Source: Amoebophrya sp. A120
Taxonomy: Eukaryota > Protista > Dinoflagellata
DNA length: 64,000 bases
NCBI GenBank assembly: GCA_905178155.1
Contig: CAJINV010000010.1
Location: 791,188-855,187, forward strand
Direction: 5' to 3'
A program made the translations under genes and the position numbers. The notes beneath the pieces were generated by a model. That model made no database searches and was not told the DNA's origin. It saw only the letters and a program-made list of their open reading frames with translations. How positions within the stretch are numbered: position 1 is the stretch's first letter; every line of letters starts with the position of its first letter. Positions 6,001-36,971 of this stretch are shown here, in pieces.

Positions 6001-7313
6001 TGCGTATGGAAATAAGTATTGAAGTGCTCTGCAAAGAACTTGTCGTGCTTCACTGCCTTCGAAAGATGTCGTTGTGTTCTCCTCAACATGAACATCCACC
6101 GACGTTCAACTACAATTATAAACTTGTGATGCTGTTACAGCATCACAACTTCATAATTCCAGACGCAGATCGATATTTGCATTGAATAAGTGCGAGCTGC
6201 CGTCGATTTCGTGCCACCCGCCGAGCTATGCACTGCAAAAGTATCGCACTCGTAGTGATCGCAGTCATGCATTACAAATCTAGTAATCAAGGTAAATCCG
6301 CATTACAAATTACATTTGTAATGCTGAGCCAATTTGTAATGCAGTTTATACTAGTACGATACTTTTGCAGTTCATACGAGCGCCTGCATAATCTCGGAAA
6401 GTTCCTTTTCCAGCTTATCCTGAGGAAAAACGTCCCCACCCAATAGCCAAGTTGGTAAGTCTGCAACACAAATCCCTTCGCTTTGGGAGTTATGCATGAC
6501 AAGCTTGCTCCGTCTGTAGTGTATTGCTGTTTAACAAGGACAGCCGCATCACAAAGACGCCTGCTCATCCTGTTTACAGCGTTACAAATTATGTCAGACA
6601 GAACAGGACTACAAATGCGATGCCTCTCGTAGAGATGTGCATTTCTGTGGCTGCGAATCTGCATGACAACTATGGGGTGGGGACGTTTTCACATAGGATA
6701 CAGCTGGCGCAGCATGTCCGGGCCGGGGTTGGGTGGCACATACCGGTATCAATGCAAAAGTGTCTGGGTCTGGAAACTTGTGACGCTGGGTAGCGTATCG
6801 TGAGGAGGCCACAAGTGCTGGCGCAGCATGACAAGTTTCTGAGCTTCTAGGTGTTGCCTATTCTGCATGACAAACTGCGTTTCTGCATGACAGAAAAATG
6901 GCGCTCTTGGGTAACGTGCATGACAGATTTGAGAGTCATGCCAGACAAGGATGACAAACATGCACTCTTCCAGACCCTGACATTTTTACATTTGATAACC
7001 GCAGCCCGGTGTCCGGGTTGGTGACCTCATCCAGAGCGTCGGTGAACGATTTCGTGTCAAACTCCTTCTATCCTGTGCAAAAGTGCCGCGCTAGTAGTAA
7101 AAATCGCATGACATCAAATTTTCTCAAAACAAGATGATGAAATGGAATTTGTAATGCGGATTTGTCTACTTCAGGGGAGTAGAGATTTGTAATGCATGAC
7201 TGGCACAGGTTTGTACGTAGTACGAATGCTTTTGCACAGCATACATTCAGCGTCGCCCACGGGTTCTGCCACGTCTCCAGCCGTAGCGTCGACTGCACGG
7301 CGGCGGCCGACAT
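1..7313 (-). CDS. TIMELESS: Timeless/Tof1/Swi1 family fork-protection protein; multi-exon, runs off the window start
   Basis: Removing 16 introners (+1 TSD copy each) and 2 inferred GT-AG introns gives one frame from ATG 7313: MSAAAVQ...EIMQALGGW...EPCAKALDKLRDII...HLAPIL...LRIMVLLTDP...NLQSIKEDL...CLLLFRNLVAIPDP...RHGGFG. These match Timeless N-terminal motifs (ALG, DLLPIL, IRLMVNLTQP, LQAYKEAF, LLLVRNIL, RHSRFG). Confidence 0.85.
258..512. mobile_element. Introner family A
   Basis: TIRs; TSD GCTCA. Confidence 0.85.
555..808. mobile_element. Introner family A
   Basis: TSD TGGGT/GGGGT. Confidence 0.85.
859..1178. mobile_element. Introner family B (GGAAAAATCCCCCTCCCCATA TIR)
   Basis: TSD CGACC. 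Confidence 0.9.
1220..1471. mobile_element. Introner family A (TATCAAATGCAAAAATGTCTGGGTCTGGAA TIR)
   Basis: TSD CGCGA. Confidence 0.9.
1518..1827. mobile_element. Introner family E (TATCACAATGAAAAA TIR)
   Basis: TSD TCTTC. Confidence 0.9.
2589..3549 (-). mobile_element. Non-autonomous Helitron nested in an introner
   Basis: Minus strand starts TTACTATATTTATATA and ends in a GC hairpin + CTGG (CTRR). Inserted between A and T with no TSD. Removal restores the family-D consensus GAGAAATGAAA|TTTGTA. Confidence 0.8.
3071..3515. repeat. 12-bp tandem repeat (CCGGAGAGGGTC) followed by inverted degenerate copies, inside the Helitron
   Basis: GAGAGGGTC units at 3071-3250; ACCCTCTC units at 3265-3515. 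Confidence 0.8.
3796..4148. mobile_element. Introner family B
   Basis: TSD AGGTC/GGGTC. Confidence 0.85.
4183..4332. mobile_element. Introner family D (TGCAAAAGTATCGTACTCGTA TIR)
   Basis: TSD CACGT. Confidence 0.9.
4550..4869. mobile_element. Introner family B
   Basis: TSD CAATG. Confidence 0.9.
4918..5170. mobile_element. Introner family A
   Basis: TSD CAGGT. Confidence 0.9.
5508..5808. mobile_element. Introner family C (aged)
   Basis: TSD CTTGT/TTTGT. Confidence 0.8.
5855..6188. mobile_element. Introner family A (aged)
   Basis: TSD ACTGC/AGTGC. Confidence 0.8.
6227..6376. mobile_element. Introner family D
   Basis: TSD CGAGC. Confidence 0.9.
6416..6700. mobile_element. Introner family C (TATCCTGAGTAAAAACGTCCCCACCCC TIR)
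   Basis: TSD CAGCT. Confidence 0.9.
6747..6997. mobile_element. Introner family A
   Basis: TSD ACCGG/ACCGC. Confidence 0.88.
7069..7243. mobile_element. Introner family D
   Basis: TSD CCTTC/CATTC. Confidence 0.82.
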
Positions 7314-7957
7314 TTGCCCCGGCTGTGTGCGTCCTGCCCAGAGGACGACGCCCGGCTGTGTGTGAAACCGCCGGGGCACGCAAAGCTACATGTTTTGAAC
7401 TGTATCAAAAAATCCAAAAAGGTTCAATAAAGCAGGTTAGAATTATTAGGTCGGTTCAAATAATGATTGCGGTTTTTAAAAAAATCCCTATGAGCTGTAA
7501 AAAGTCCTGAGTCGTCGCTCCGCGTCGTCCCAAGCAGACTGACTTAAACCCGCTGCGCCAGCTAAACTCACAACTATACCTGAACTGAAGGTGAATCTGC
7601 TAAAATGTGCTCGTAGCTTCTACTTATTTCCCTCGGTCGCGATGAAAAAGTTGCAAATTGCGCGACGAGTAGGAACTACTAGTACCCTTTGCGACCACGT
7701 AGCAGCGAGGTTGATGCACCTCCGCAGGCTTTGGTTCTACTTGTCCGAAAGTGGACGAGGAAACCTAATAAATTAATACTGCTTATCCAGCACCGCAAAT
7801 TGATATGCGGATGCACAGCAAGCTTATTTCAACATTTGCACGACAGCCGACGACGACAAGTTGTCTACTTCATCATCCTTTTTATGCTATCCGCGCAGCA
7901 TTTTTTGCTTAGTTACAATCTTGTTCCGCACGACAGGTTGATTTCAAGCAGCACAGT

Positions 7958-10900
7958 TTATATTTTTTCTACGTCTCCAGCAACATTTTTCCGCAACAAA
8001 ACAACGCCACCTGAGGAGGACGAAGTAGAAGTACTTTCATTTGTACAGCATAAGTAATCACTTTTATATACACCGCAAGCGCTGCATTTTTGCATATCCA
8101 GAATAAGGAACATCAGAACCGCGCGAGTCACCGCCAAAAACACCAGATCGGTGTTGGATTTTTTGAAGTTTTATTGTTTCTCCATCTTGACACAAGCTGC
8201 ACTGAACGTTGGGCAATTATAGATGTTGTGCTGTCAATGAAGACAAGAATTTTTTTACTTCACCTCTTTTCCAGGGGTGCATGTCGAAACGATAGGGACA
8301 GAGACATAAACGCGTCTCCTTCACTTGATGAATTGCACATACTGGGTGGGGACAGAGAAATGTCCAAGAAATCTTCCGCATGTTCCGTGAGTGGTTAATA
8401 TTTTGTTGAAAAATATACTGCGAACTTGGGATACAAGTTTCTTGTGCGTGTTTTGTCACCGGGCGCAAAAAGAAATCTGTAATGGCATTGCATCACATGC
8501 AACATCGCGTATAACTGAGTGAATCTATTTCATCTCATATCACCGTGACCACGCTCTCCACTCGTCCGTCCGCGCTGCCGACCTTGACCAGCATAGTAGC
8601 CTTCTTTGCTTCGCGCTGGTATTTCAGGACCACCGCAGCCGTATGGAATGAGCAAAAGCATCGTAAGTACTCATGCAACTCATTGCATCAAAACCATTGC
8701 ATGACAACATCGGACCACACACGCTACGAACACGACGTCCGGGCGGCCGCGGCCTTCTATGAAGGTCGCGCCCGGAGGGCGATATTGGTAACCAAATGCG
8801 TGCGCGAAAATCTAACCAGCGCGAAAGCCTAACCAGCCGCGCGGCGAAAGCGCGGCCCTGCGGGCCGCGCTTTGGCGCTATTTATTTTTGATTACAGTCC
8901 CACTACTTCTTCTTCAAGCCCCCTGCAGGAGAAACTGGCCCCCTGGCCAGGAAGGTATCTGGGTCATCGGGGGCTTCCGGATTCGCATTCAAAGCTTATC
9001 GCAGGAGCCTGCGGGCCGCCGCGGGCGACAGTAGTTGTCCGCGGCCCTTTGCGATAAGCATTGCAGGCGAAATCCGGTCTGCTATTTCGCAGCGGGGCAT
9101 CCTTTCTAGCCCCCTGCATGACAAACTGGCCTCCTGGCCAAGAAGGTATGTGGCCATCCACCTTCGCAGCGGGGCATCCTTTCTAGCCCCCTGCATGACA
9201 AACTGGCCCCCTTGCCAGGAAGTTATGTGCGAAACCACAAACCCGCGGACCCTGCTGGGCCACCAAAATCGGCCATTTCAGACGCGGCGGAGGTCCCGAA
9301 TTGGTGCCCACAACCCAGAGCAAACGTGGATTTTGGGACATGCCTCTGCCCGCTTCTAATGCATTTTTTTTTCTCCAATCGCGATGGTATGGCGCAAGCG
9401 CGCGCCCGCCGGACCGCCTTTGGTGGCCAGTTTGTAAGCCTGCCGGGGGTTCTCAACTTTTGCCAATTTTTCCTTTTTTTCCAAGTTTCTATGTGGCCGA
9501 AGGGCTCCGGACATTTTCACCGACCGCAGCTGCCTCGCAGTTTTGAAGCCTGCGGAGGGATTGCGCTTTTGCGCATTTTTTTTTCTTTTTCTGGTTTTCA
9601 AGTGGCCCGGGCGACCTGGACATTTTCACCGACCGCAGCTGACTGGCAGTTTTGAAGCCTGCGGAGGGGTTGCGCTTTCGCGCAATTTTTCATCTTTTTC
9701 TGGTTTCCAAGTAGCCCGGGCGGCCTGGACATTTTCGCCGCCCGCACCTGGGTGGCAGTTTTGAAGCCTGCGAAGGGATTGCGCTTTTGCGCAATTTTTC
9801 ATCTTTTCCCATTTTCCAAGTGGCCCGGGTGATCTGCACAAAATCCGACGATTGCTTCCACCCACGTTATCTAGCAACTTTTTGCCATTTTTTTTCAACT
9901 TTTTCCAGTTACGAAGCGGCCCAAGGCTTCCGAACAGGTCGCGGGCCTGCTTCTCCAACGCAGCTGGCCAGCGGGCGGAGCAAAAAATAGTCCGTCTCTT
10001 TTTCAGATACGAAGTGGGCCAGACCGCAAAAATCCTCTTTTTTCACCTTCTCCCGCTTGGTTTCTGCCGTTTTTGCGACATTTTTGACCTCCTGGCCATT
10101 TTCCCATCTGGTCCGCTTTTTTTCCCTTCTCCCGCTTCATTTCTGGCCATTTCCCTGACCTTCACGCCTCCCGGCGGTTGCCCTATATGGTAACGGCAAC
10201 TGCCTTCGCGCTGCGTTTGCTAAAGCAATATCGCAGGCGCGCAGAGCGCGCCCGCCGGCTTCGTGGGCCGGCGCATTTGGTTACCAGACTAGTGCTTTTT
10301 AGCATATCATAGTGAAAAAAGCCCCCACCCCATATCGGAAACGGAAGACGCGCGAATTTGTGATGCTGTATCTCAGTACATCACAAATCGACTTGTATTG
10401 CTAGAAGGCCGAGAGACGAAGCTGCGGCATAAATTGCAGGCAATCTGTCATGCTGTTTCCCACTTGTCTAGTTGCCTCCTGTCATGCTGGAGACGCATAG
10501 GCTTACTCCCACGCTAGGCAGCACTACAGTCCGCATCTTTTGCCTTCTAGCATCACAAAGCTGATTTGTGACAACAAATCTGCATCACAGTTCCTTTTAT
10601 ACAAAAAATATTTGTAATGCAAAAATTCAAATTGTACGCTTACCACGACACTTTTGCGGCGCGTAAACCACCACGCAGCCTTATCAGAAGGAAAAGTGTC
10701 TGGGTCTGGAAGGTTGGAGCTTGTGATGCTAACTTTGGACTCTAAAAGAATCTGTCTTGCATGATTGACCATGATCAGCAAGAGGAGACTAGTTTGTGCT
10801 ACGCGGGGAGGGCGTTTGTCATGCGGAATAGGCATCAGGAACCTCTCTAAAAATCTGCGATGCTAGGGCATGCATTACTGACGTCCTGGGTCATGCAAAA

Positions 10901-12866
10901 TATGCATGACAAACGCCGCAACATTCCAGACCCAGACATTTTTGCATTTGATAAGCCTCGCACGGTGTCGATCTCCAAAATTTGGCTCACCTGCAGGTTT
11001 ACCATCGGCTCCTGTAGTTGCTCGGGTACCACTTTTATCAACTGCAAAAATGTCTGGGTCTGGAAACCTGTGATGCTGAATTGAGCATGATTGAAGCGCT
11101 TGCAATGGCAGCCAAGCATGACAAGTTTTTCAGACAGTTCTGCTGATGCCTAGCACGCATCACAAATTGCGTTTTTGCATGACAAAGAGCCCATCTCTTT
11201 TGCTGCTCAGGCAACACAGATTTTCCAGGAATGCAAGACACGCATCACAAGTTCCACTTTTCCAGACCCAGACATCTTTGCACTTGATAACTTTCTCCGG
11301 GGGGGTTTTCAGCTGAAACCTCCACTCCTCCATCACCGCTTCCCTCCCCTCGAGCCGGTTACTGGCGCCGTCGGGGGATGCACTTTCTTGCTCTATGAAG
11401 GACACGGTCTCGCGCAGGCAGCCTTCCAGCTTTTCGAAGTCGGCGTAGGTGAACGCGTGGAGGAAGAGCAAAGTTCGGGCCAGAAGTTGGTGCGACTTGG
11501 AGGATCTCCGTGTGATGTAGCTGCCGAGACTGTCGCTGTTCGTGTCCGCGCGCATCACTATCATATGTGAGAACGTCCCCACACCAGAGCCAAGTTGGGA
11601 ACTTAGCAACACAAATCCAGAAGCTTTGGACGCCACGCATGACAAGTTGCAGTCCGTAGTGTAGTGCATGTTAGCACGGACAACCGCATCGCAAATCCAT
11701 CTGCTCATCCTGTTTACAGCATTACAGATTCCAAAACACGATTGGATTTGGAAATGCCTCTCGTAGAGCTGCGCATTACAAATGTTCCTGCAATCGCAAA
11801 TCTGCATGACAACTCTGGGGTGGGGACGTTTTTACACAGGATAATCACCTTATCCTTGTTATCGGAGTGCACCGTGATGAGCTGGGCCGATTATTTATCA
11901 AATGCAAAAATGTCTGGGTCTGGAAGAGTGCTAGGTTTGTCATGCAGGTTTTCCATGACCCACGCGGTCTGGCATGCACGGCCTAGCATGACAGGTTCTA
12001 TGAGATGATCTCTATCATGCCTTTCCTGCATCAGAAACTGCCTCTAAACTTGTTCAAAAGTCGTGGACCTCCTTTGGTAATCATGCAACACAAATTCTTC
12101 CACGATCCAGCTGTAGCATGACAAGTTACAATCTTCCAGACATCCAGGGATATTTGCATTTCATATTTTTGCTGCAGTAGAAGCACCGTGATCTCCGAGG
12201 TCGGAAAGAGACCGAAAACCTGGTGGTGTTGAGTTGCAAATATGGTTCGAATCTTCATTTCTTAAATAGCGCACGCACATCAGAAGTCGTTTCTTTTGTT
12301 TCCTCCTGCTTGTTGCTCGAACATATGCTATACACCGGTGTTGACACCTCATCGCAAAGCATGGCAAACTGAGTGAACTGAAAAACAATCAGATTATCAA
12401 CCGCCTTACCGCCTCTCCGTCCTCCTGGTCTTCGACTCTGTGCGCGCACACGTGCAGAAACAAATCGATCTCGCCGACTATCATATGTAAAAACATCGTA
12501 ACCCCATAGTTATCAAGTTTGCTGGAAATCTGCAAGACAAAGCGCCAAGTTTTGGGAGTTATGCATGACATGTTCTTCATTGGCCTTGTAGTGTATTGAT
12601 CCTCTGTTTAGCTAGCTCAGCAGCATCACAGATGGAGCGCAGCGTGCTGATTGTAGCATGACAAACTGCGAAACACGACTAGAAATAAATGATTCTCATG
12701 GGCGGGCTCCGCATGAGAAACATGTTTACCATGCAGATTTGCATGACAACTTTGGGGTGGGGAGGTTTCTACCTAGGATACCGACGACTTCCCGCCCGTA
12801 CGTCGTTACCTCAGCGGTCTTTGTGACTTCCGGCGAGACCTCCAGCAGGGTCGCGGTTTCGGACAT
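7958..12866 (-). CDS. Hypothetical multi-exon protein; 3' half may be disrupted
   Basis: Open frame from ATG 12866 (MSETATLLEVSPEV...) across 5 introners and 2 tiny GT-AG introns to ...LEIDTVRG (10954). Later protein-like pieces (AKKHFIEGRGRPDVVF, AAVVLKYQREAKKATMLV) are interrupted by degenerate introners and a Helentron-like insertion. 3' end uncertain. Confidence 0.55.
8763..10290 (-). mobile_element. Helentron/Helitron2-like non-autonomous element, copy 1
   Basis: Asymmetric 15-bp subterminal IR TGGTAACCAAATGCG (8786-8800 / 10272-10286), hairpin CGCCC-GGA-GGGCG, insertion at CACT^T with no TSD. Confidence 0.8.
10306..10666. mobile_element. Degenerate chimeric introner (B-like left end, D-like right end)
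   Basis: Ends do not match and there is no TSD pair. Confidence 0.5.
10682..10953. mobile_element. Introner family A
   Basis: TSD AGCCT. Confidence 0.9.
11036..11289. mobile_element. Introner family A
   Basis: TSD ACTTT. Confidence 0.9.
11559..11843. mobile_element. Introner family C
   Basis: TSD ATCAC. Confidence 0.9.
11896..12165. mobile_element. Introner family A
   Basis: TSD TTATT/TTTTT. Confidence 0.88.
12479..12780. mobile_element. Introner family C
   Basis: TSD CCGAC. Confidence 0.88.
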
Positions 12867-13440
12867 GATCCGAAGGGGGGGAACAAGAAGTTCTGCAATA
12901 TGAAAATTTTATATGCGGAAGATAGACGATATGTGAAAGAGTTTTGGAAAAATGAACTAGTACCTACTCGACCACGGGGGGCGTAACACAATACGGTCAC
13001 GCTCAATGATTCTTTTGAACACGGGGATGCCGTAGTGATAGTTGTACTGAAAAGTTTTTTATTTCTATTTGAAGTTGAGTCCTTGAGTAGCTGCATTTTT
13101 CAAATCACCGATGAAGCTACGAGCTGTTGTACCCGCAGAACGGCAAACCTTATTCTTATGACGTGATTATTCAATATCAATCCACTAACACCAGTACGAA
13201 TTATCTACGCGGTGAACGCAACAGGAAACGAACCAGCCTTGGACGAGGAACGATTGCGATTTGTGCACGAAAAAAGCTAAAACAGTACGAAACGACGGGA
13301 CGAATGAATGGAAACATTTGACGCGCGACCAGATGCGTTTTTTTGATGTGCCGCGCAGATGTATTTGGATCATAGACGAAACCTTACCGAGGAAACGCGA
13401 GGTCGCCCGCGGCGAAACGCTTCGCTTAAAGCATAAAAAG

Positions 13441-16400
13441 CGGGCAGGGACCGGCGACCGCGGGCAGGGACCGGCGGCACGGGCCGGCGACCGCGAGCAC
13501 GAGCCGGCGACCGCGAGCAAGGGCCGGCGGTCGCGAGCACGGGCCGGCGACCGCGAGCACGGGCCGGCGACCGCGAGCACGGGCCGGCGACCGCGGGCGC
13601 GGACCGGCGACCGCGGGCAGGGACCGGCGGAGCGGGCCGGCGACCGCGAGCACGGGCCGGCGAACGCGGGCGCGGACCGGCGACCGCGGGGCCCGCCGCG
13701 GACAGGATCGCGATCCACGGGGCGCTGGTGGTTCCCCAAATTCATCTCCAGTACTATGTCTGTAGGGTTCTTCGGGGTTGCTTCGGTGCGTTGCGTCTCC
13801 GCCGGTGGGGGTTGGCTCTCCATGCGTTAGCGGGCGCCTTGGCCTCCTGTTTTCTGGAGGAGAACTCTCCAATGACGATCATCCCAAAGGATGATCCGTC
13901 CGTGCAGTTTGGGAATGTGCATAAAATGCATGACCGGGCAGCCGTGGTCTTGCGAGCCTGTGAGTCAAGGCCGACCGCTGGTCGGTCGATATTTTATGGG
14001 CGTGGCCAACGCGTCCATTCTATTACGGTAGCCAAAACCTGAGAAGCATGACATGAAGATATTCAGGGGGCGCCATTTCGCGCTTTTCCCACCCACCCGC
14101 CGCTAAGCTCTTTCTCACTTTGCATCGGAAGGATCGCGAGGTCTCGCGCCACTCTGAGTTCAGGGTGTGACAGAGACCCACACTACGTCTTCTGGATCGG
14201 GGGGCTGGCTCTCCATGCGATAGCGGGCGCCTTGGCCTCCTGTTTTCCGGAGGAGAAATCTCCAATGACGATCACCGCGCGCAAGATCGCGATCCGCGGG
14301 GCCCGCCGCGCACAAGATCGCGATCCGCGGGGCCCGCCGCGCACGAGATCGCGATCCGCGGGGCCCGCTGCGCACAAGATCGCGATACACGGGGCCCGTC
14401 GCACACAAGATCGCGATACACGGGGCCAGCTGCGCACAAAACCGCGATCCGCGGGACCGACTGCGCACAAAATCGCGATCCGTGGGGCCAACCGCGCACA
14501 AAATTGCGACTTGTGGGGTCAACTGTGTACAAAATCGCGATCCGCGGGGCCAGCTGCGAACAAAATTGCGCACAGAATTGCGGTCTGTGGGGTCAACTGC
14601 ACACAAAATCTTGATTCGTGGGACCAGCCATGCACAAAGTCGCAATCTCTCGGGCCAATTGTGCACAAAATTGCGATTTGCCGGGCCAGCCACGCACAAA
14701 GTCCAGATTTGCCTGGTCACTTGCGCATAAAATCGTGATCTGCCTGACCAGCCGCACAAAAAATTGTGAGCCTCAGGGTCGGGTGCGCACAGAATCGCGA
14801 TCCACATGGCCAGTCGCGCACGAAATTGCAAGCCCCAGGGTAGACGATGCACAAAATTGCAATCCACCAGGCCACTCACGGAAAAAAATGCAATCCACAA
14901 GGCCAGCTCCTCACAGAATTGCAATCCACAAGGCAAACTACACAGGAAATTACAATCCACGAGGGAAAAGACGCAGAAAATTGCGATCCGTTGGCCGAAC
15001 CACGCACAAAAATGCAATCCAGAGGGCCACTAATCTGGTAACCAAAGCGTGCGCAAGCGCTCGCAAGAGCTCTTTGCGAGATGCCCATCCATCGCAAACG
15101 CAGCGCGAAGGCTTTGCCGTTGCCATATGGGAGGGACTCGGGGGTATGCAATCACTGGAAAAATCGGGCATTACCAAGCGTGTTTTGCCTTCAGAAAGCG
15201 GATCAGGCAGAATTGGTGGGAATTTTCCGGAAAGCAGCCAAAACAGCAATTACTAAGTGGGAAAAGGGTAAAAAAGAGCATTTTTACAGCTCCGCCCGGT
15301 CTGAATCTGAAAAAAGATTGTGGCACTTTCGGCAAGGGCCAGTGGTGTGATGCGTTTTATAGCGGAAAATGCGTCACCTCCGGGCAGCTCCAGCCGCTTG
15401 AAAATTGAAAAAAAACGTTGAAAAAATGCAATTTTTCGCAGCATGCAAGCGGCCGACAAAATTTACCGATTTTGTCCAGTCCCCGGAAGCCGCTTGGAAA
15501 TTGAAAATGACAATTTTTGCTGAAAAAGCAAAAGCCGCTTGGAAATTGCCGCTCCAAGACGGCTTTTCAAATTGTCACACGGCCCACACCGTCGAGATTG
15601 GACGAAAAAAAACAGCTATCAAGCCTGCGGAGGTGTGTCACACGGGCACGGTTTTCATCCTCTCTGAGGGTCGCGAGATGAGATCTCCTCCCGCTTGGAA
15701 ATGCCCGATCTGGGTGGCCCAAAAGGGCAGCAGGAAATGAAGAAAATTGCATCACTTTTTGAAATTTGTGTATTTTACCTGGCCAGCGTGCCCCCGTGCG
15801 TAACGTTATGTGGGGCGGTATAGTGGCCTCCAGAACAGACTCGTTTTTTTGAAGAGGCATCGAAAGGATGTCCCGCTGCGAAGTAGCCGGATTTCGCCTT
15901 CAATGCTTATCGCAGGAGCCTGCGGGCCGCCGCGGGCGACAGTAGTTGTCCGCGGCCCTTTAGGGCCGCGGGGAAGTGGTGGAGCCCGCGGCGGCCCGCA
16001 GGCTCCTGCGATAAGCTTTGAATAGAAATCCGGAAGCCCCCGATGACCCGAACAGGTCAGGGCCAGGGGTCAGCTTGAACAAGGCTGGCGGGCCTTCGCG
16101 CTGGCTAGATCGATGTTCGCGCACGCTTTTGGTTACCAATATCGCCCTCCGGGCGCGACCTTAATACACAAAATTGCGACCCATGGGGCCAGCTACGCAG
16201 AGATGTCCAATTTCTAAGGCCCCTTTTATGCAAAATTGTAACGCACGCACCCAACCCCACGCAAAGTTCTGATCTGTTGGGCTAATGGCGCGCATAGTTA
16301 TCATGTGTAAGCTTCCTAATACGCAAACTTGTGGTCTGCCAGGCTGCTTGTGCACAATTTTGCCCACAGCTGGCGAGAAAAGTCACAACTTTGCACAAGG

Positions 16401-16970
16401 CTGCCCCTATGAATTGCAATTTTGTGCGCGTTTGACATTGCGCGCCGCATTTCTGTGCATATATAGTCCCACAAATTGCATTTTTGTCTCTATGAGACCC
16501 CACAGATCGCATTTGTCTGCGCATTTGGCCTCGCGGAGTGTAATTTTTACCGATTTTAGCCCCGACAGATTGCAACTCTGTGCACAGCTTCCCCCGCGGA
16601 TCGCGATCCTGTGCGCATCCGGCCCCGCGGGTCGCGATCCTGTGCGCATCCGGCCCCGCGGATCGCGATTCTGTGCGCATCTGGCCCCGCGGATCGCGAT
16701 CCTGTGCGCATCCGGCCCCGCGGTCGCCGGTCCGCGGTCGCCGGTCCGGGTCCGCGGTCGCCGGTCCGGGTCCGCGGTCGCCGGTCCGCGGTCGCCGGTC
16801 CGCGGTCGCGGTCGCCGGTCCGCGGTCGCCGGTCGCCGGTCCGCGGTCGCCGGTCGCCGGTCGCCGGTCGCCGGTCGCCGGTCGCCGGTCGCCGGTCGCC
16901 GGTCGCCGGTCGCCGGTCGCCGGTCGCCGGTCGCCGGTCCGCGGTCGCGGTCGCGGTCGCCGGTCCGGGC
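13441..16970. repeat. GC-rich minisatellite/31-bp satellite block in inverted (foldback-like) arrangement
   Basis: CCGGCGACCGCG arrays at 13441-13720 are mirrored by CGCGGTCGCCGG arrays at 16720-16970. About 31-bp GCACAAAATCGCGATCCGCGGGGCC units run forward at 14275-15030 and reversed at 16340-16720. Confidence 0.85.
15032..16161 (+). mobile_element. Helentron/Helitron2-like non-autonomous element, copy 2
   Basis: Same ends as copy 1 (TGGTAACCAAA...TTTGGTTACCA-ATAT-CGCCC-TCC-GGGCG-CGACCT), same CACT^T target, shared internal block (15903-15960 vs 8995-9050). Confidence 0.8.
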
Positions 16971-17913
16971 CACTGCGGCATCGCCCTACCATGCTGCCGG
17001 AACCTTTCCTCTCGCTGGCCCCGGCGGAAGTAGGGGCACGGCCGTGCTCGCGCGCGAGCCCCTTCCCCTAGGCTGCGGGCGTCGGCTCAAGTGGACGGGA
17101 AGAGCGGCCGGGCGGAACGGTCGAGCGCCCTGCTTTGTTGCGGGCGCACCGCCCGCCGCGGCCCGGCGCCGTTTGGTTCGCGGAACTGTGAGGCCCAGTC
17201 CCTTGGGTGTGCGCTGGAATCCGCCGGCCGCGCCGCATATTCGTGCCCCCGGCCCGAGGGGAACCGAGCGGGCATACGGCGCGCGCGTTCGGGCCGGTCG
17301 GCTCTCGTCCAGAGATCGTTATTTCACCTCGTGTTTTTTCTCTGCCTGACAATACAGGCGGCAGTCGCCCGCCTGCACATTGATACAATGCCAATGAATG
17401 ATCTGGATCCACCCGCCCTCCCAAAGTCTTCGGATCACCGTGGTCGAGAGCGACCCGCCGAGGCACTGCCCCGACCTCGGAAAGTCGTTGCGGAATACGA
17501 AATCTGTAGAGCGAGGACGAACGCAGCTTTCTTTTTAGCGCATCTTTTCTTTGTCAAAGACAAAGTTTCACAAGAATACAAATATGGATGAGCTCGGCTT
17601 CCCTCTGAATGTATACGTCAACCAACCAACGACTCTAGTACACTCAGCGCACTTCTCGAAAGCAACTGCGCGCTGTCGCACACGACGAGCACCTCGCTTT
17701 CGCGGCTGCACCACGAACCGTTCGCTTTTGGCCGAGGGCAGCGCGGCACTCGGGATGGTAATGCGCTACGAGATGCAGTAAGGTGGGGGTACAAACAGGT
17801 TTGCGAGTTCTTTGCCCCCCCCACACTCTCACTGCCAATCCCCGCGATGAAGAACGGGCAGCTTAGAAGAAGCAAAGAAATAGCAGACCACCAGCCGCTC
17901 CCCGCCAAACGCC

Positions 17914-20900
17914 ATGCTTCACCTATCCTGAGTAAAAACGTCCCCACCCCAGAGTTGTGATGCAGATCTGCAAGCACAAGACGGTTTGTAATGCGCGATC
18001 CCATGAGGGGCATTATCAATCGCGTTTTGGAACTTGTAATGCTGTAAACAACATAAGGAGATCGATTTGTTATGCGGCTTCCCTTGCTAAACTGCACTAC
18101 ACTACAGTCTGCAACTTGTCATGCGTGGTTTCCAAAACTTCAAGATATGTGTTGCAAAATCCCCATCTTGACTCTGCGGTGGTGACGTTTTTACATTGGA
18201 TATCACCTCCCGCCGGCGCGGCGGGTCGCTTCGCTCGGTGCGCCGACGTGCATGCTCGACGGGACGGGGCATTTATGCATTGCAAAAGTGTCTGGATCTG
18301 GAAAGTTGGAACTTGTAATGCTGCTCTTGCATTCCGGTGAAATCTGTATTGCATGACCAAGAACAGTGGTAGCCTCTTATGTCATACAAAAACGCAGTTT
18401 CTCATGCGGAGTTCGTATGAGAAGGCGTGCTGCAACCTTGGCATGCTTTCCTGCATAAGGAAGTGACTTCCTCTTGCACATTTTAGCATCACAAATTTCC
18501 AGACCCAGACATATTTGCACTTGATAGCATTTTGTCCCCAGCAAAACGAAGGTGAAGAAGACGCTGGAGAAGCAAACCCGGCCGCTCCCGGAGATCACCA
18601 AATACCTGAGTCAGTTCGGCATCGGCAAGGCGAAGACCAAGCAGGAGCGGCGGCTGCAGTACTACGAAGTCGTATCCAATCAAAATCTGTCTGGGTCTCG
18701 AAGATGAATCGAAATTTCTGATGCGAGGACATGATGCCTGCCATACAAGAAGAACCTGTAATCTATTTGCATGTTGACCAGTAGAAGGAGCGACACAGAA
18801 AGTCGTGCCAAGGACTACACCAGAGGCTGCACGGTAGAAGTCGCAGAACCTGTGAAGTAGATGCTAGGCCACGCATTCCAGACCTCGCGAGGTTGCATGA
18901 AGCAGCTACAGTTCTGCATGTTTTGACAAGTGTAGTTGCATCGATCCTTCCAGACGAGGACCGCGAATTTGGACTTGATAATTTACCAGCGGGAGCAACT
19001 TCGCGCCGAAGTTTTTGAACCAGCTGAAACCCCGCATGTGGTTCATCGGTTCGGCGGTGAAGGACGAGCAGCTGCCCGCCCCAAAACTGCCCGAGATCGC
19101 CTTCGCCGGGCGTAGCAACGCGGGGAAATCGACGCTGCTGAACAATCTGACCGGCAATTTGTCGAAGGCCTTCGTGTATCAACTGTAAAAATGTCTGGGT
19201 CTGGAAGAATGCAAGTTTGTCATGCTTGTCTGGCATGATTCGAGAATCTGTGTTGCATAGGCACAAAAAAGCCCTCTTACCTGTCATGCAAAAACGCAGT
19301 TTGCCATGCGGAATACGTAAGACATGGCAGCCAAAAAATTTGTCATGCATAACTGCGTACTGCAGTGCGTCGATCATTCATTTTTAGCATTACAAGTTTC
19401 CAGACCCAGACATTTTTACGATTTGATATCGTGAAGCAGACCCCCGGGAGTACGACCACTTTGAACTTCTACAACCTGGGCCAGCCCTCCATGCTCCGGT
19501 TCGTGGACCTTCCGGGATACGGGTTTGCCAACGTCAGCGAGGAACAGCGAACCACGTGGACGGAATTCAGCCTAAAGTACCTGAAGTACCTATCCCGGGA
19601 AAGAACGTCCCCACCCCGTAGTCCAGATGGGGATTTTGCAACACAAACCTAGAAGTTTTGGGACTCACGCATGACAAGTTGCAGTCCGTAGTGTAGTGCA
19701 GGTTAGCGAGGAGAGCCGCATTACAAATCCGTTTGGTTGTCCCGTTCACAGCAATACAAAGTCCAAAACACGACTGGGAACACCTATCATGGGGATACGC
19801 GTCGCAAATGGTCGCGTCAGTGCGAATCTGCATGACAACTCTGTGGCGGGGACGTTTTTTCTCTTGATGGTACCGGAAAACGCTGCAGCTCGTGTGCCTC
19901 CTGGTGGACAGCCGACTCGGGCTGCTGGACTCCGACCGGGAGTTTCTCGCGTTCTTGGAGCGCAGCCGGGTGAAGTGGCAATATGGAATGCAAATATGTC
20001 TGTGTCTGGAAACCTGTCATGCAAGGAAGGGAATAGTGAGTACTACACTGTAATGCGCTGCCGAGCATGACAATTTTTTCACTGCTTCTGAGTTGCGTCC
20101 TCCGCATGAGAAACTGCGTTTCTGCATGACAGCGGAGCTCGTCTTCGCGGCCACGCAATACAGAAGAGCTCAGAGTTAACATGTCAGACTAGCATGACAA
20201 AACCCGCAGTTGTCTCCCAACATCCAGGGATATTTGCATTTGATAGAAAACTACTGTTCACGAAAGCAGACTTGGTGCAGCGGGGAACTCTCGCCAAGCG
20301 TATGTCCATGGTGTGGGAACACGAGCTCAACCTGTCCACCGCTCGGGGGAATTATCCGCAGCAACCGGTAGCGAGCGCGACCGCTGCAGCATCAAGACGG
20401 CACTACAACTACATGCACTCGCCGCCGATTGCCATCTCCGGGCAGAAGCGGCAAAACCTGGAGCAGGTGCGGAGCCTCCTCGAGAAGTTTGCGCTGAAAA
20501 AAGAAGTTGTTGTATCCTGAGTAAAAACGTCCCCATCCCATAGTCAAGTTGCGAACTCTGCAAAACAAATCCAGCAGTTTTGGGGGCCATGCATGACGAG
20601 TTCGTCTTTGTAGCGTAGTGCAGGTTAGCAAAGACAGTCGCATCACAAACCCATCGCTTTACTATCCTGTTTACAGCATTACACGTTTGGAAATGCCTCG
20701 CATGTAGATGCGCATTACAAATGTGCATGTCATTGCAAATCTGCATGACAACTCTGGGACGCTGGGGACGTTTGTGCTCAGGACATGTGGTTGACGGGAT
20801 CAAGCAAAACGTGTACGATCTGATCGAACTGACCCGGATCCGGAAGCAGCAGAAGCAGGAACGACGGAAAATCAAGTTGAGGCAGAAAGAGTACGAAAAA

Positions 20901-23900
20901 AAGATGAATGTGGGCGAGAAGGACGTGACGAGCACCTTGAAACGCTGGGGTTTGGAGGAGGACTTTGACGACGTCGAAGAGGAAAGCGTAGTCAATGATG
21001 TCGGAGCTGCTGCACCAGAGCCGGAGGAACTTGAAAGAACGAGCAGCACTTTATTTTCCGCGGACGTCGTGCAGCGAACACAGACAAACCCTTCCGCGCA
21101 GTCACAAATAGACCATGCTCCATCGATGTCTACCGCAGGAGAGGTAGACGTGGCAACGAGGGCGGCGGGAGAAGCTGCAGACGAGAGTAGTGGAGGTGGT
21201 CCCACAGGAATAAACGAGAGTGGTAGTCCCGCAGTCACCAGGCAAGACCGAGACTGCGAACCTGAGACAGCAGAGTGTTTGAGGCGAGAGAAGATGTTTT
21301 TTTCCTCCGGACTGAGCCGCGCAGGTGAGCAGGAACAAACTAGTGGCAAGAACATCGTAGGAACTAGTACATCTGATGCACGAGGAGGACACTACCGGGA
21401 CCCCGCGGCCGTGGACGTGCCTTCAGGGGAACAGTTGGCGACCACCGGGGTAGAAGATCATCAACCGGGACTACGCTGTTCTACTGGAGAGGTATACAAC
21501 GCGGATCCATCTGGTGAAACGGAAGGCGAGTCTCGTCCTCCCGCTCTGGGTTTGTTGCGCTGCAATAATTACACGACTTCTAGTGCCTCACCAGATAGCC
21601 ACAGATTTATTTCCGCTTCGTCTGAAAAATCCTCTGCCTCGCCGTTCTACTACGCAGTTCCCGAAGCTGATGATGGTGTTGTTCCGGATGAGAAAGCTGT
21701 AGATCATGGACCGAGTTTTACTGGAGGCCGTGAGGAAGAATTTGAAACTACAACTAATGCATCTTCCGAGCGACTGCCAGGCGAGAAAATAAACCGCGCC
21801 GTGTTCTTTTTTCACAACGAGCCGCAAGATGAGAATCGGCGTAGCAGTGGGAAGACAAGCGACGGCAACCCGAGGGAGCTACACGGCTGCGAAGCGGGCG
21901 CTTTCACCCGACCAGAAGGAGCTGAAGCGACCGCGTCAATGGCAAGTAAGTCTACGTCGAATAAAGGAGACATTTGGCGTAGCGTCCCGTGAAAAAACCA
22001 CGCCCCCAAGTCCACCCGAGCGCCAAGATGGGAATAGAGCTGCTGGATAACAAGTCGTCAGGTTTTGGCTGCTGCGCATGACAGAATTGGTTCTGCGATG
22101 TTGTCGGGTTGACCTAGTGAATTCGCATCTTCACAGATCGCGCGTCTTGTCCTGATTGCAGCATGGCAAAATGCAAAACACCACCTGCACCAGAAGGCGT
22201 TCCATAGGGTGCTTTCAGATCTTTGCATGGGCCAAAAAATCTCTTGTGGGGGCGTTTTTACATAGGATATGGCGACCGGAAGACGAGAGTTTTATCACTT
22301 CCTTCGTTATTGACGATGCGGAAAGCGTGAGAACATCGTCATTTCGGGACAAAAAGAAGAAGCGCACGATCGGAAAGCCCGTCAGAGAAAGTGGTTCTCC
22401 TGAGAAGAAAACGGCCTTTCCAGATTTAGACGACATCGCGAAAAAGGTTCAGATATCAAATGCAAATATGGATCTGGTGGGTCATCCCCATTGGGAGATC
22501 GACGCGAGATTTGTCGTGCTTGTCTGCCATGACGATTGCTGTGAGGTTTGTGAAGATGCGTGTCCACTTATTTGTGATGGTTTTGCTTTTTGCTTGTCAT
22601 GCAGAATAAACGCAGTTTCACCTGATCTGGTTTGCGTAACGCATAGGAGCCGCGTTACAATTTGTTCGCATGCTTACATGTGCATTAGAGGAGCAGTACA
22701 GCTTTCCTGATCTCCCAGTAGACCTTGAGATGATATTTGCATCCGATAGCAGATGATGCAGAGCCACACGAACTACCAAGAAGCGGATTTCCTGCGTAAC
22801 AAAAACCACCTCACGAAAACCCCCAGCCGGGAGGAGGTAACCATCACGGAAGAAGAGCTCAGCAAGATCGCGGACAGAATTGAAAGCGACGGTATTCGCG
22901 AGGACCAGGAGGAACAGAAAGGCTTTAGCAGTAGCGAGAACCTCCAAAATTCGAAGGACGCGGAGCAGATTGCGAAAAACCTAGTGTGGAAGAAGAATTT
23001 GGCGGAAAATAAAAAACACAAACTCTCGCTCGTGGAGGAAAAGGTATCAAATGTAAAAATGTCTGGGTCTGGAAGGTTGGAACTTGTGACGCTAAGTTTG
23101 GACTCTAAAAAAATCTGTATTGCATGACCAGCAAGGAAGAGGATTCTAGTTTGTGCTACGCGGGGAGGGCATTTGTCATGCGGAGTAGGCATCAGGAAGC
23201 CCTCTAAAAATCTGTGACGCTAGGTCGTGCATTACAGACATCCTGGGCAATGCAAAATATGCATGAGGGAATTTCCAAGAGTGCAAAATATGCATGACAA
23301 ACACTGCAACATTCCAGACCCAGATACTTTTGCATTTGATAAAAGGAAAAGAGGTTCCAAACAGAGTGGCGTACCGGGCTGGACAATCGAGATCATCATG
23401 ATGCAGAGCAGCTCGTCCTCGCCCCCCCAACTGCCGATCTGAATTTGCGGGTTCACCACCAAAGAGTTGATGACAAGATGAACTTCCTTTCGGCTCCGGC
23501 TCTCTCCTCCTCACACCAGCTGCCCGACTTGTCGAAACTGACGCCCCGGCAGCGGCAGGAGCACGTGCTTCGCGAAGAGGCCAGCACCCGGGCTTCTATG
23601 CTATTTGCAAAACTATCGTACTAGTATGAATCGCCTGGCAAATTTTCTCAGCGTGAGAAATAAAATTTGCAATGCGGATTTGACTTGAGAAGGAAATTTG
23701 TAATGCACCATGACTACGATTACTACGAGTACGATACTTCTGCACAGGATAGCGTCTCGGATCGGGCTCTTTTCCGCGGACGAAACCGACGGCGTGATTC
23801 CGATATCAAATGCAAAAATGTCTGGGTCGGGAAGGTTGGAACTTGTGATGCTAACTTTGGACTCTAAAAAGATCTGTATTGCATGACCACCAAGAGGAGT

Positions 23901-25624
23901 CTAGTTTGTGCTACGCGGGGAGGGCGTTTGTCATGCGGACTAGCTAGGCATCAGGAAGGGTTCTAAAAGTCTGTGATGGTAGGGCATGCATCACAAACAA
24001 TCCTGGGTCATGCAAAACATGCATGACAAGTCTCAGAATCTTCCAGACCCAGACACTTTTGCACTTGATATCCGAAAGGAATTCGCAAGTGGAAGTTCGT
24101 CGGGAAGCCGAATCCGAAGTCCCCACTCCTCGCGCAGCCGCGCGATGTAGCGCGGATTCTGCAGACCAGTGACTGGAACCACTTGAAGAAAAATCGGAAG
24201 TCGTATGGCAGTGCGCAACCCCCTCTCCCCCTCATCTGTATAGCCTGCACGGCAATACAAGCAGTAGCAAAAACGCCAGTTCTGCAAGACAAATTTACAC
24301 TGGAGTGGAGTGCTATTTGGGCTAGTGCCAGAACTTGTCATGCATAATAGTGACGGGAGGGAGAGGGACAGTCTGGAGTTGCTGCTTTGCATGAGAAATG
24401 AGAGCGAGGGGGAGTTGTGCACTCTCATAAGTCGGGCAACGCTTTGACGTTCGAAGAGGGGCGGGAGAAGATGATGCGTATGAAGTGCAAATATGTCTGG
24501 GTCTGGAAGAATGCAAGACTTGTAATGCAGATTTTCCATCGTGACCCCTGAGGTCTGAAATGCGAGACCCAGCATGACAGATTCTTTGAGTGCTGTATCA
24601 TGCCTTTCCTGCATGAGAAACTCCCTGCTCTCAACTTGGTCAAAAGCGGACAGCTTTTGGTACTCACGCAACACAGATTTTTGCATCATTCAGATTTAGC
24701 ATGACAAGTTCTAATCTTCCAGACCCAGACACTTTTGCATTTGATAATGCGGTGGATCGACCGAAATCGGCGCAGACCGGGCTTTATGGATTGCAAAAAT
24801 GTCTGGGTCTGGAAGATTGCCAAGTTTGTCATGCATGTTTCTCATGACACATGACGCCTGTGATGCATGACCTAGCATCACAGGTTTTTAGAACCCTTCC
24901 AGATGCACCTTCCGCATGAGAAATGCCCTGTTCGTGTAGCACAAACTGTGCCCCTCTTGCTGGTCATGCAATACAAATTTTTTCAGAGTCCAAAAACAGC
25001 ATGACAAGTTGCATTCTTCCAGACCCAGACGTTTTTGCACTTGATAGGCTTGTTGGCAGAAGCGGGGTCGATCAAAAGGTCGGACCTGGAGGAGGAATTT
25101 TTGGCGAAGCACGCACGGAAGCTGAAGGTGGGGAGCAGCGCGAGTGGGGTGCAGTCTATCCCCCAGAAAAAGACCGACAGGTCATATTTGTAATGCAAAA
25201 ATAAATAGACAAAAAAATCTGTATTGCATGCCCTAAACAGGATGTTATGGCCTCGCCCATGACAGATTTTCCTGTGTATTTATTTTTGCATTACAAATAT
25301 GACCTGTCGGTCTTTTTCTGTGGGATACAGTCCATGAAGGACCTGCCCAACGTGGACCCCACGGGGAGGGAGGACTATGCAGTGCAACAGCATCGTACTC
25401 GTACAAATGCATTACAAATTTCCTCAGCATGAGAAATAAAATTTGTAATGCGGATTTGACTGAATAAAAAGATTGGTAGTGCATGATTGCAATACGAGTG
25501 CGAAGATACTTTTGCACACGATAAAGGCCCGCATCTGACGAAAGAACTGCAGGCGTCGAAGAAAGTGTTGCAGCAAACGAATAAGCTGAAGAAGAAGCAG
25601 CGGAACGCCAGTTTGGGGAAATAG
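17914..25624 (+). CDS. engB: EngB/YihA/YsxC-family GTPase with long low-complexity C-terminal extension
   Basis: The spliced frame contains [18 protein letters not shown] (G1), KQTPGST (G2), [10 protein letters not shown] (G3), LLVDSR and FTKAD (G4). It stays open across 17 introners to TAG 25622-25624. Start codon tentative. Confidence 0.88.
17924..18202. mobile_element. Introner family C
   Basis: TSD TCACC. Confidence 0.9.
18274..18526. mobile_element. Introner family A
   Basis: TSD GCATT. Confidence 0.9.
18673..18980. mobile_element. Introner family A (strongly aged)
   Basis: TSD AGTCG/ATTTA; removal restores frame. Confidence 0.7.
19177..19428. mobile_element. Introner family A
   Basis: TSD TCGTG. 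Confidence 0.9.
19591..19869. mobile_element. Introner family C
   Basis: TSD GTACC. Confidence 0.9.
19982..20245. mobile_element. Introner family A
   Basis: TSD GGCAA/GAAAA. Confidence 0.85.
20513..20785. mobile_element. Introner family C
   Basis: TSD TGTTG/TGTGG. Confidence 0.85.
21980..22269. mobile_element. Introner family C (aged)
   Basis: TSD TGGCG. Confidence 0.78.
22454..22748. mobile_element. Introner family A (aged)
   Basis: TSD TCAGA/GCAGA. Confidence 0.8.
23045..23341. mobile_element. Introner family A
   Basis: TSD AAAGG. Confidence 0.9.
23597..23751. mobile_element. Introner family D
   Basis: TSD GCTTC/GCGTC. Confidence 0.85.
23804..24070. mobile_element. Introner family A
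   Basis: TSD TCCGA. Confidence 0.9.
24204..24429. mobile_element. Introner family J (singleton; AGTGCGCAACCCCCTC TIR)
   Basis: TSD AGTCG. Confidence 0.82.
24479..24746. mobile_element. Introner family A
   Basis: TSD ATGCG. Confidence 0.9.
24785..25046. mobile_element. Introner family A
   Basis: TSD GGCTT. Confidence 0.9.
25157..25327. mobile_element. Introner family F (long palindromic arms)
   Basis: TSD CAGTC; near-perfect arms of about 50 nt. Confidence 0.92.
25376..25523. mobile_element. Introner family D
   Basis: TSD AGGAC/AAGGC. Confidence 0.82.
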
Positions 25625-36100: not shown

Positions 36101-36971
36101 GTGTGCTGCTCCTTTCTCCTGTCCTATTCCGAATTTCCGGAGCAGATCCTTCACAATGCGGCGGCTCTGTTGGAAGAGGACGACCAGACGAGGGCCCCCA
36201 GCGAAAAAAAAATTCTGCTGCTCGAGCGGGGCCGGAGCAGCTATGGCTTGATTCGCTGGCTCACCCGGAGAAGCCACCTCGCGAGTGAGGTAGGGAGTGA
36301 GGCACGGGTCAGTAGTGATTTTTATCTCAATTGTTATAGTGCTGTGATCAGCTACAGCTACTGGATTTTAACTTCCTCGATACACAGAATCTCGTACAAG
36401 AGATTGAATCTCATCTCCGCAGGTGAGGGGTGCTTGGACTAATGGACGCTGTGTACTAGCTGAAGAATATCTTTCTTAATGACAATAGCACAGTGACAGT
36501 TGTGAATGTGATCGTGGTCACACGACTTACGTTCCCACTCCATAACCTGCTTCGGGCGACGAGGCAGGGGGCGAGAGTGAAGTGACGGAGTTTGGGGAGA
36601 CGGTTCGGATGGACGTCCTGAAGGTGGTGCGTGACTTTGTGGACCGGCAAAGGCGCACTCTCGGGGCCGAGTGGAGCGTGAACGTCACTACGCGGGGGAT
36701 GGGGCACTTTTACCTGGTCGAGCTGAAGAAACAGGAACGGCGCGACGGCGTTGCCGCGGCAGGCCCTTGTAGTGAAGCAGACGATGCAGGAAATTATGCA
36801 GCTGATAATTTTTGTAAGAGAACTAGTACGGAAGCAGAAGCAGTGGCTCTTTCAGGAACAAGGTCGTCCGCCTTATCTTTTGTCACCCTAACAGAGGAAG
36901 CGATAGCTGAAATGGAAAAGACGAATGAGGTAGTGGAAAAGTACCACTATGACAAGTTGAGCAGAGCATGA
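33180..36971 (+). CDS. Class I SAM-dependent methyltransferase, OMS1-like
   Basis: Spliced frame (6 introners + 1 inferred GT-AG intron): ASGRCVELGAGG (motif I), FVRADA, FDTVCCSF, KILLLERGRSSY, RGMGHFYLVE. Confidence 0.75.
33615..33878. mobile_element. Introner family A
   Basis: TSD ATCTT. Confidence 0.88.
33936..34144. mobile_element. Introner family H (TATC.AAGAAAAAAAC TIR)
   Basis: TSD CGAGG. Confidence 0.9.
34417..34678. mobile_element. Introner family A
   Basis: TSD GACGG. Confidence 0.9.
34720..35044. mobile_element. Introner family B
   Basis: TSD ATGGC/GTGGC. Confidence 0.88.
35135..35396. mobile_element. Introner family A
   Basis: TSD GAGGT. Confidence 0.9.
35472..35756. mobile_element. 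Introner family C
   Basis: TSD ATCTG/GTCTG. Confidence 0.85.

What the first reader, a model, noticed from the sequence alone, without database searches (positions are those of the whole stretch)
11891..20250. Strand-dependent TSD decay locates the junction: the transcript-upstream copy is kept
Seen: where the two TSD copies differ, using the transcript-downstream copy creates stop codons in genes on opposite strands. In the minus gene at 11891-11895, CAA-TAA replaces CAA-AAA from 12166-12170. In the plus-strand EngB gene at 20246-20250, AAG-TGA replaces AAG-TGG-CAA just before the TKAD motif. At 18673 and 47992 three of five bases differ, yet removing element + 5 nt still gives the frame. 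Inference: at least the first 2-3 nt of the downstream copy are excised and evolve freely, and repeat identity is not required. Dependence on transcript direction favours RNA-level processing over homology-based DNA excision. Caveat: this assumes the standard code, which the stop-free exons here support.
Basis: partly seen in the sequence, partly recalled or inferred. Interest (0 to 1): 0.8.

Follow-up and report, generated by a model that had tools for sequence, protein, structure and literature searches.

The report
Transposon introns cut at fixed offsets
In a marine parasite whose genes are packed with small transposons, the transposons are removed from transcripts at a position set by the gene's direction, keeping four letters of the first flanking 5-letter repeat and one of the second, which likely reveals a splicing rule that ignores the usual GT-AG signals.

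Summary
The window matches Amoebophrya sp. A120 (annotated proteins 99-100% identical). The elements are its published introners (TAT...ATA inverted ends, 5-nt target repeat), whose splice position the describing paper left unknown. The title is wrong at one base: transcript contigs keep upstream repeat positions 1-4 but take position 5 from the downstream copy. All 10 mismatched junctions readable in RNA contigs fit this 4+1 cut (5 minus-strand, 5 plus-strand); keeping the whole upstream copy fails at 2, and cutting before position 4 fails at 5. Annotated proteins (6 sites) and an ortholog (1 site) agree. The intron is N-TAT...ATA-NNNN, so +2U and +3A come from the element. AG is enriched only at the predicted acceptor (15 of 81, 5.9 expected). 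Two same-orientation copies of one family in opposite-strand genes keep opposite copies, which favours RNA splicing over DNA excision. Most likely an altered spliceosome, with a branch A at -7 (inferred, untested).

The parts
11892..12166 (-). Predicted intron at the first lead site (element 11896-12165; repeats 11891-95 and 12166-70)
   Evidence: stop codon if the downstream copy is read at position 3; annotated P0003 needs at least 3 upstream bases; not read in RNA
19981..20249 (+). Predicted intron at the second lead site in the EngB-like GTPase gene (element 19982-20245; repeats 19977-81 and 20246-50)
   Evidence: stop codon with the downstream copy; P0002 needs at least 3 upstream bases; Pfam MMR_HSR1; junction bases not read in RNA
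18672..18984 (+). Predicted intron, element 18673-18980, repeats differ at positions 2, 4, 5
   Evidence: P0002 reads Thr, allowing 2-4 upstream bases only
3792..4149 (-). Intron in the Timeless-like gene, element 3796-4148; position 5 comes from the downstream copy
   Evidence: joint 3791-4150 in 4 of 4 runs
5504..5809 (-). Intron, element 5508-5808; position 5 from the downstream copy; outer stem pairs broken
   Evidence: joint 5503-5810 in 4 of 4 runs; folding
5851..6189 (-). Intron, element 5855-6188; position 4 from the upstream copy
   Evidence: joint 5849-6189 in 3 of 4 runs
6743..6998 (-). Intron, element 6747-6997; position 1 from the upstream copy
   Evidence: joint 6741-6998 in 2 of 4 runs
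7065..7244 (-). Intron, element 7069-7243; position 4 from the upstream copy
   Evidence: joint 7063-7244 in 3 of 4 runs
20512..20789 (+). Intron, element 20513-20785; position 4 from the upstream copy
   Evidence: contig piece starts at 20790 in X1 and X2 (table 8)
22453..22752 (+). Intron, element 22454-22748; position 1 from the upstream copy
   Evidence: piece starts at 22750 in X2 (table 8)
25375..25527 (+). Intron, element 25376-25523; positions 2 and 4 from the upstream copy
   Evidence: piece starts at 25528 in X1 and X2; P0002
35471..35760 (+). Intron, element 35472-35756; position 1 from the upstream copy
   Evidence: piece starts at 35758 in X1 and X2
36290..36548 (+). Intron, decayed element 36291-36544 whose repeats differ at positions 1-4
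   Evidence: consecutive pieces 36289 then 36549 in X2; sequence
38516..38775 (+). Predicted intron in the BMT5-like gene, element 38517-38771, repeats differ at positions 1 and 5
   Evidence: P0001 reads Phe-Asp, which neither whole copy gives; predicted beforehand in note 26
63433..63720 (+). Predicted intron, element 63434-63716; position 4 from the upstream copy
   Evidence: ortholog P0004 from strain AT5.2 has Ile, as the upstream base gives
8638..10666 (-). Predicted 2-kb composite intron, ends 8642 and 10665, repeats differ at positions 1 and 4
   Evidence: P0003 needs at least 4 upstream bases; weak end pairing, 7 of 20
47991..48282 (+). Predicted intron, element 47992-48278 (revised right end)
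   Evidence: only this end restores the frame; no RNA or annotation check

Best explanation
These are MITE-like transposons with a 5-nt target repeat that are removed from transcripts at a position set by gene direction, one base before the element and four bases after it, most likely by an altered U2-type spliceosome. Shown: the removed stretch is always element+5 nt, and every readable mismatched junction fits N1N2N3N4 | N5-TAT...ATA-N1N2N3N4 | N5 in transcript orientation. Because the ends are inverted repeats, either orientation presents U at +2, A at +3 and A at -7, so the element splices whichever way it inserts and restores the target exactly. Inferred: the machinery reads +2U/+3A and ignores +1; the A at -7 serves as branch point with the acceptor measured from it; AG is only weakly preferred; the terminal hairpin brings the ends together and may stand in for U1, which the describing paper could not find. 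Odds: RNA-level removal about 0.93, single fixed 4+1 cut about 0.85, spliceosomal catalysis about 0.7, branch at -7 about 0.5.
For: 10 of 10 element joints skip element+5 nt, in contigs that also lack a GT-AG intron. 10 of 10 mismatched junctions read in RNA fit the 4+1 cut. Six annotated-protein sites intersect at 4, two of them predicted in note 26. Ortholog agrees at 63434. Family 3 copies 7069 and 25376 share genome orientation, lie in opposite-strand genes and keep opposite copies. Elements insert both ways relative to the transcript (8:6, 5:8, 6:6, 6:4 in four families). AG at downstream positions 3-4: 15 of 81 against 5.9 expected, p=0.00065, the only one of 64 dinucleotide-position tests below 0.04. 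+2T 80/81, +3A 81/81, -7A 80/81. At 5508 the outer stem pairs are broken and the joint still fits. In PMC7789003 Table S4 all 9 top A120 boundary pairs have T second, and all 9 top A25 pairs begin TT where that strain's repeat begins TTA.
Against: No lariat, branch point or spliceosome dependence was tested. No YTRAY branch motif excess at the 3' end (24 against 22 at the mirrored end). No G preference at +1 (29 of 81; background G 29%). The 5'/3' asymmetry at the -7 pair is 7:1, p=0.07. No single RNA-read site bounds the cut on both sides; the plus-strand upper bound rests on two annotated proteins, and P0002 is imprecise at 2 of its 17 junctions. All RNA contigs are one sample, labelled RNA only by guess. 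8 of the 9 Table S4 A120 pairs also fit the mirrored register. 66 of 76 elements fold into a terminal stem, which suits a structure-guided enzyme as well.
Confidence: 0.6

Rival explanations
1. Same 4+1 cut on RNA, but made by a non-spliceosomal, structure-guided nuclease and ligase that measures from the terminal hairpin, as proposed for euglenid nonconventional introns.
For: 66 of 76 elements are predicted to pair their ends; terminal dinucleotides are nearly free; U1 snRNA not detected in A120 (PMC7789003).
Against: AG enrichment at the acceptor; +2U/+3A match the spliceosomal donor core; the joint at 5508 fits although the outer pairs are broken, and 18673 shows no predicted end pairing; U2, U4, U5, U6 and 83 of 89 spliceosomal proteins were found.
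Confidence: 0.2
2. RNA splicing with a cut that varies between sites or molecules (for example after position 4 or 5), so that 4+1 is only the commonest register.
For: Each site gives a one-sided or wide bound; contigs drop minor forms; PMC7789003 Fig. 3 legend calls the sites variable.
Against: All 4 testable position-5 sites take the downstream base (1 in 16 if 4 and 5 were equally used); all 5 RNA-read position-4 sites take the upstream base; AG is enriched at one register only.
Confidence: 0.12
3. The elements are excised from DNA (somatic rearrangement or transposase excision) before transcription.
For: They have transposon anatomy; 2200 joints were not shown, so excised DNA forms were not excluded directly.
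Against: The kept copy follows the gene, not the element (7069 against 25376); X5 contigs span whole elements at depth 43-46, like flanking DNA; the junction is a fixed chimera of both copies.
Confidence: 0.03
4. The joints are reverse-transcriptase template switches across hairpins flanked by direct repeats.
For: Hairpin plus short direct repeat is the classic substrate (recalled); all RNA data are cDNA contigs.
Against: 36291 is skipped with one shared base; several elements have no contig cover while flanking exons do; reading frames and an ortholog need the removal.
Confidence: 0.03

Closest known systems
Amoebophrya A120 introner elements (Farhat et al. 2021, PMC7789003; read: sections 10, 11, 12, 16, 32, abstract, supplement passages)
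   Same: These are those elements: TAT start, run of A at 11-13, 5-bp direct repeat, about 260 nt, repeated families, RNA-supported.
   Different: The paper calls the splice sites variable and the border unknown (Fig. 3 legend); here the border is fixed at 4+1 by gene direction. Its figures (3, S19-S23) were not visible to me.
Micromonas and Aureococcus introners (passages of review PMC11282704; Huff et al. 2016 not held)
   Same: MITE-like, inverted ends plus target duplication, exact restoration of the coding sequence by splicing.
   Different: There one GT/GC or AG site is carried by the element and the other is taken from the duplication; here both cuts fall in the duplication copies and only 4 of 81 are GT-AG.
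Fritillaria borealis non-canonical introns (passages of PMC11282704 and PMC13326754)
   Same: Transposon-derived, mostly non-GT-AG, handled by a U2-type spliceosome.
   Different: Fritillaria favours AG-AC/AG-AT and keeps U1; here +1 and the last two bases are nearly free and U1 was reported missing.
Euglenid nonconventional introns (passage of PMC11282704)
   Same: Terminal stem set back from both cuts, repeats at the junction, no GT-AG.
   Different: Euglenid stem pairs +4..+6 with -8..-6 and junctions follow pyrimidine|purine; here +2..+4 pair with -5..-7 and no such bias is seen.

Membership tests
Amoebophrya A120 introner elements | Inverted ends starting TAT, seven looser bases, then at least three A | tested here: met
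   T79 A80 T74 of 80; A at 11-13 in 69, 68, 75 of 80
Amoebophrya A120 introner elements | 3-5 nt direct repeat at the boundaries | tested here: met
   56 of 81 perfect 5-nt repeats; no extension beyond 5 above chance (16-17 of 81)
Amoebophrya A120 introner elements | Repeated, sequence-similar families | tested here: met
   10 clusters of 2-14 members
Amoebophrya A120 introner elements | Removed from transcripts | tested here: met
Amoebophrya A120 introner elements | Host is strain A120 | tested here: met
   three exons hit single proteins named Amoebophrya sp. A120 at 99-100%
Amoebophrya A120 introner elements | No transposase inside | tested here: inconclusive
   only three long frames in large elements were scanned; one is PIF1-like, none a transposase
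Canonical U2 spliceosomal intron | GT-AG ends | tested here: not met
   4 of 81 at the 4+1 register
Canonical U2 spliceosomal intron | YTRAY branch motif near the 3' end | tested here: not met
   24 at the 3' end against 22 at the mirrored 5' end, p=0.83
Canonical U2 spliceosomal intron | Lariat intermediate, spliceosome dependence | not testable with these tools
   no raw reads of this strain were offered
Euglenid nonconventional intron | Pyrimidine|purine junctions and +4..+6/-8..-6 stem | tested here: not met
   repeat positions 4 and 5 show background composition; stem lies at +2..+4/-5..-7
DNA-eliminated internal sequence | Excision from DNA, independent of gene direction | tested here: not met
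   kept copy flips with gene strand; X5 contigs retain elements

The most novel reading that the evidence does not exclude
A120 runs a spliceosome whose grammar is N-U-A...A-(6 nt): the first and last intron bases are free, the acceptor is measured from a branch A supplied by the transposon's inverted end, and the hairpin replaces U1. Any TAT...ATA element with a 5-nt duplication is then a perfect intron in either orientation at any site, including multi-kilobase ones, which would explain the genome-wide invasion; strain A25 would reach the same +2U/+3A from a TTA end.
Probability: 0.4. Interest if true: 0.85.

Novelty: new variant of a known kind. Interest (0 to 1): 0.62.

Why it matters
More than 60% of introns in this parasite are non-canonical and the describing paper left their borders and mechanism open. 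A fixed 4+1 cut turns 'no clear splicing signature' into a simple rule, gives exact predictions for branch mapping and minigene tests, allows gene models to be corrected mechanically, and suggests how a transposon family can become orientation- and site-independent introns. It would be among the widest departures from GT-AG known for nuclear introns.

Tried and rejected
The joint table was swamped by repeats; plus-strand junctions were read from piece boundaries, whose leftmost placement I checked at three perfect repeats (21974, 23038, 33608). My first pairings 10305-10665 and 47992-48228 were dropped for 8642-10665 and 47992-48278, and 36291-36544 was added; counts from then on use the revised 81, another the earlier 80. 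An apparent pull to G at the last intron base fell from 5 of 6 to 5 of 8 after revision; not claimed. Excess of synonymous mismatches, 13 of 36 against 24% expected, p=0.06; not claimed. No +1/-1 pairing pattern. No Rfam match. No earlier findings of the scan. A stop-reassigned code, reported for another Amoebophrya strain (PMC11453091 passage), is not needed: the long spliced frames hold no in-frame stop. The orphan end at 26943 and the decayed pair near 43145-43528 were not resolved.
Full report
Identity. The window is dense with short elements that begin TAT, end ATA and are flanked by a 5-nt direct repeat. My revised list has 81, median 267 nt, 56 with a perfect repeat and 25 with mismatches. 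Three exons each hit one protein, named Amoebophrya sp. A120, at 99-100% identity. The elements match the A120 introners of PMC7789003 (sections 10-12, 16, 32 read). That paper's Fig. [quoted passage not shown]

Observation. Both lead sites are as described: the transcript-downstream copy gives TAA at 11891-95 and TGA at 20246-50. At 18673 three of five bases differ. At 47992 the three-mismatch pairing stops three codons later, and the frame needs a right end at 48278. Removing element+5 nt gives frames of 1122, 826, 694, 600 and 551 aa on the plus strand and a Timeless-like gene on the minus strand.

RNA test. Runs X1-X4 are contigs of one sample, labelled RNA by guess; they behave as spliced transcripts, since the same contig also lacks a 242-nt GT-AG intron. 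On 3630-7600 (minus strand) all 10 element joints skip exactly element+5 nt. Five have mismatched repeats. In transcript orientation, position 1 (6747) and position 4 (5855, 7069) come from the upstream copy, but position 5 (3796, 5508; 4 of 4 runs each) comes from the downstream copy. On the plus strand the joint table was swamped by repeats, so I read piece boundaries (table 8): positions 1 (22454, 35472) and 4 (20513, 25376) come from the upstream copy, and at 36291, where positions 1-4 all differ, pieces run 36289 then 36549. Four further mismatched plus-strand elements in genes of that stretch with position-1 to -4 differences or position-5 differences (18673, 19982, 23597, 34720; also 29308 and 29624) were not among the rows shown. 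Contig lengths equal the predicted spliced lengths over 10, 6 and 10 junctions. So 10 of 10 readable mismatched junctions fit a cut after position 4; keeping all five upstream bases fails at 2 and cutting earlier fails at 5.

Protein test. Before fetching them I noted the residues the 4+1 cut predicts at 38517 and 18673. P0001 reads Phe-Asp, which neither whole copy gives, and P0002 reads Thr. Allowed registers are 2-4 (18673), 3 or more (19982), 4-5 (25376), 1-4 (38517), 3 or more (11896) and 4-5 (8642); their intersection is 4. These models may rest on similar RNA data and are imperfect: 2 of 22 junctions in P0001 and P0002 fit no precise cut, one of them against the contig lengths. An ortholog from strain AT5.2 has the residue given by the upstream base at 63434.

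Direction. Elements lie in both orientations relative to the transcript. Copies 7069 and 25376 belong to one family and share genome orientation, sit in opposite-strand genes, and keep opposite genomic copies at the tested base. Contigs of X5 cross whole elements at the depth of flanking DNA. This favours processing of RNA over excision from DNA.

Anatomy. The intron is N5-TAT...ATA-N1N2N3N4. The element supplies T at +2 (80 of 81), A at +3 (81), T at +4 (74) and A at -7 (80). The first base is free (G 29, A 21, C 16, T 15). AG at the last two positions occurs in 15 of 81 against 5.9 expected (p=0.00065) and at no other register; since the two copies are usually identical, this could also reflect an AG preference at the end of the upstream exon. 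Of 36 mismatches, 23 would alter or stop the protein if read, as expected if the removed half drifts. 66 of 76 elements fold their ends together, but at 5508 the outer pairs are broken and the joint still fits. Table S4 of PMC7789003 lists nine top A120 boundary pairs, all with T second, and nine for A25, all starting TT; the A120 list also fits the mirrored register in 8 of 9 cases, so it is weak support.

Mechanism. Shown: direction-dependent removal of element+5 nt that fits a 4+1 cut. Inferred: an altered U2-type spliceosome that reads +2U/+3A, tolerates any +1 and any last dinucleotide with a residual AG preference, and uses the -7 A as branch point; the hairpin may replace U1, reported missing. 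The role of +2U/+3A and of a branch adenosine in U2 splicing is recalled knowledge. Against: no YTRAY excess (24 against 22), the -7 asymmetry has p=0.07, and no lariat data exist. The main rival is a structure-guided nuclease and ligase; a variable register, DNA excision and template switching are less likely.

Novelty. The elements and their hairpin are published. I found no statement of the splice register in six searches, in the sections and supplement passages of PMC7789003, or in passages of PMC12130899, PMC11282704 and PMC11453091. For the tunicate comparison I saw passages of PMC13326754 and its preprint. I could not see figures, and I did not read Huff 2016 (not held), Henriet 2019 or Roy 2023, which I know only from citations and review passages. 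Interest 0.62.

Noticed in passing
52082-56174: A 4.1-kb element with TAT/ATA ends and a perfect 5-nt repeat carries a 549-aa frame (53539-55188) with a PIF1-like helicase match (E 4e-07), possibly a nested Helitron-like insert. The host frame and the AT5.2 ortholog continue across it.
   Followed up: partly
2520-3627, 8642-10665, 56936-58699, 60554-62785: Other 1.1-2.2 kb stretches bounded by introner ends; removing each with 5 nt restores the host frame. They exceed the 1000-bp limit of the published intron analysis. No junction was read in RNA.
   Followed up: partly
8642-10665: The two ends look like different families and an inner family-4 end sits at 10305; the interior shares repeats with about 15860-16170.
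   Followed up: partly
24660-24746: Raw RNA reads of run X8 match only this piece of one element, with foreign flanks on both sides: a related element fragment retained in a transcript of another strain or organism.
   Followed up: no
17924 and 24204: The deposited protein P0002 has 2 and 1 extra residues at these junctions; contig lengths contradict the second, so public models mis-set some introner borders.
   Followed up: partly
26943-27137: A truncated introner (92% identical to 1220-1471 over 195 nt) between genes, without a right end.
   Followed up: no
13420-14990 and 16560-16970: Tandem arrays (20-, 31- and 7-nt units) between the divergent minus- and plus-strand gene blocks; the 31-nt arrays face each other as inverted copies.
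   Followed up: no
46550-49540: A small gene with a SAP-like start and repeated ARAERFG motifs (label recalled, not searched), interrupted by at least seven introners.
   Followed up: no
5199-5440: The GT-AG intron of the Timeless-like gene has a short imperfect inverted repeat at its ends and may be an old introner.
   Followed up: no
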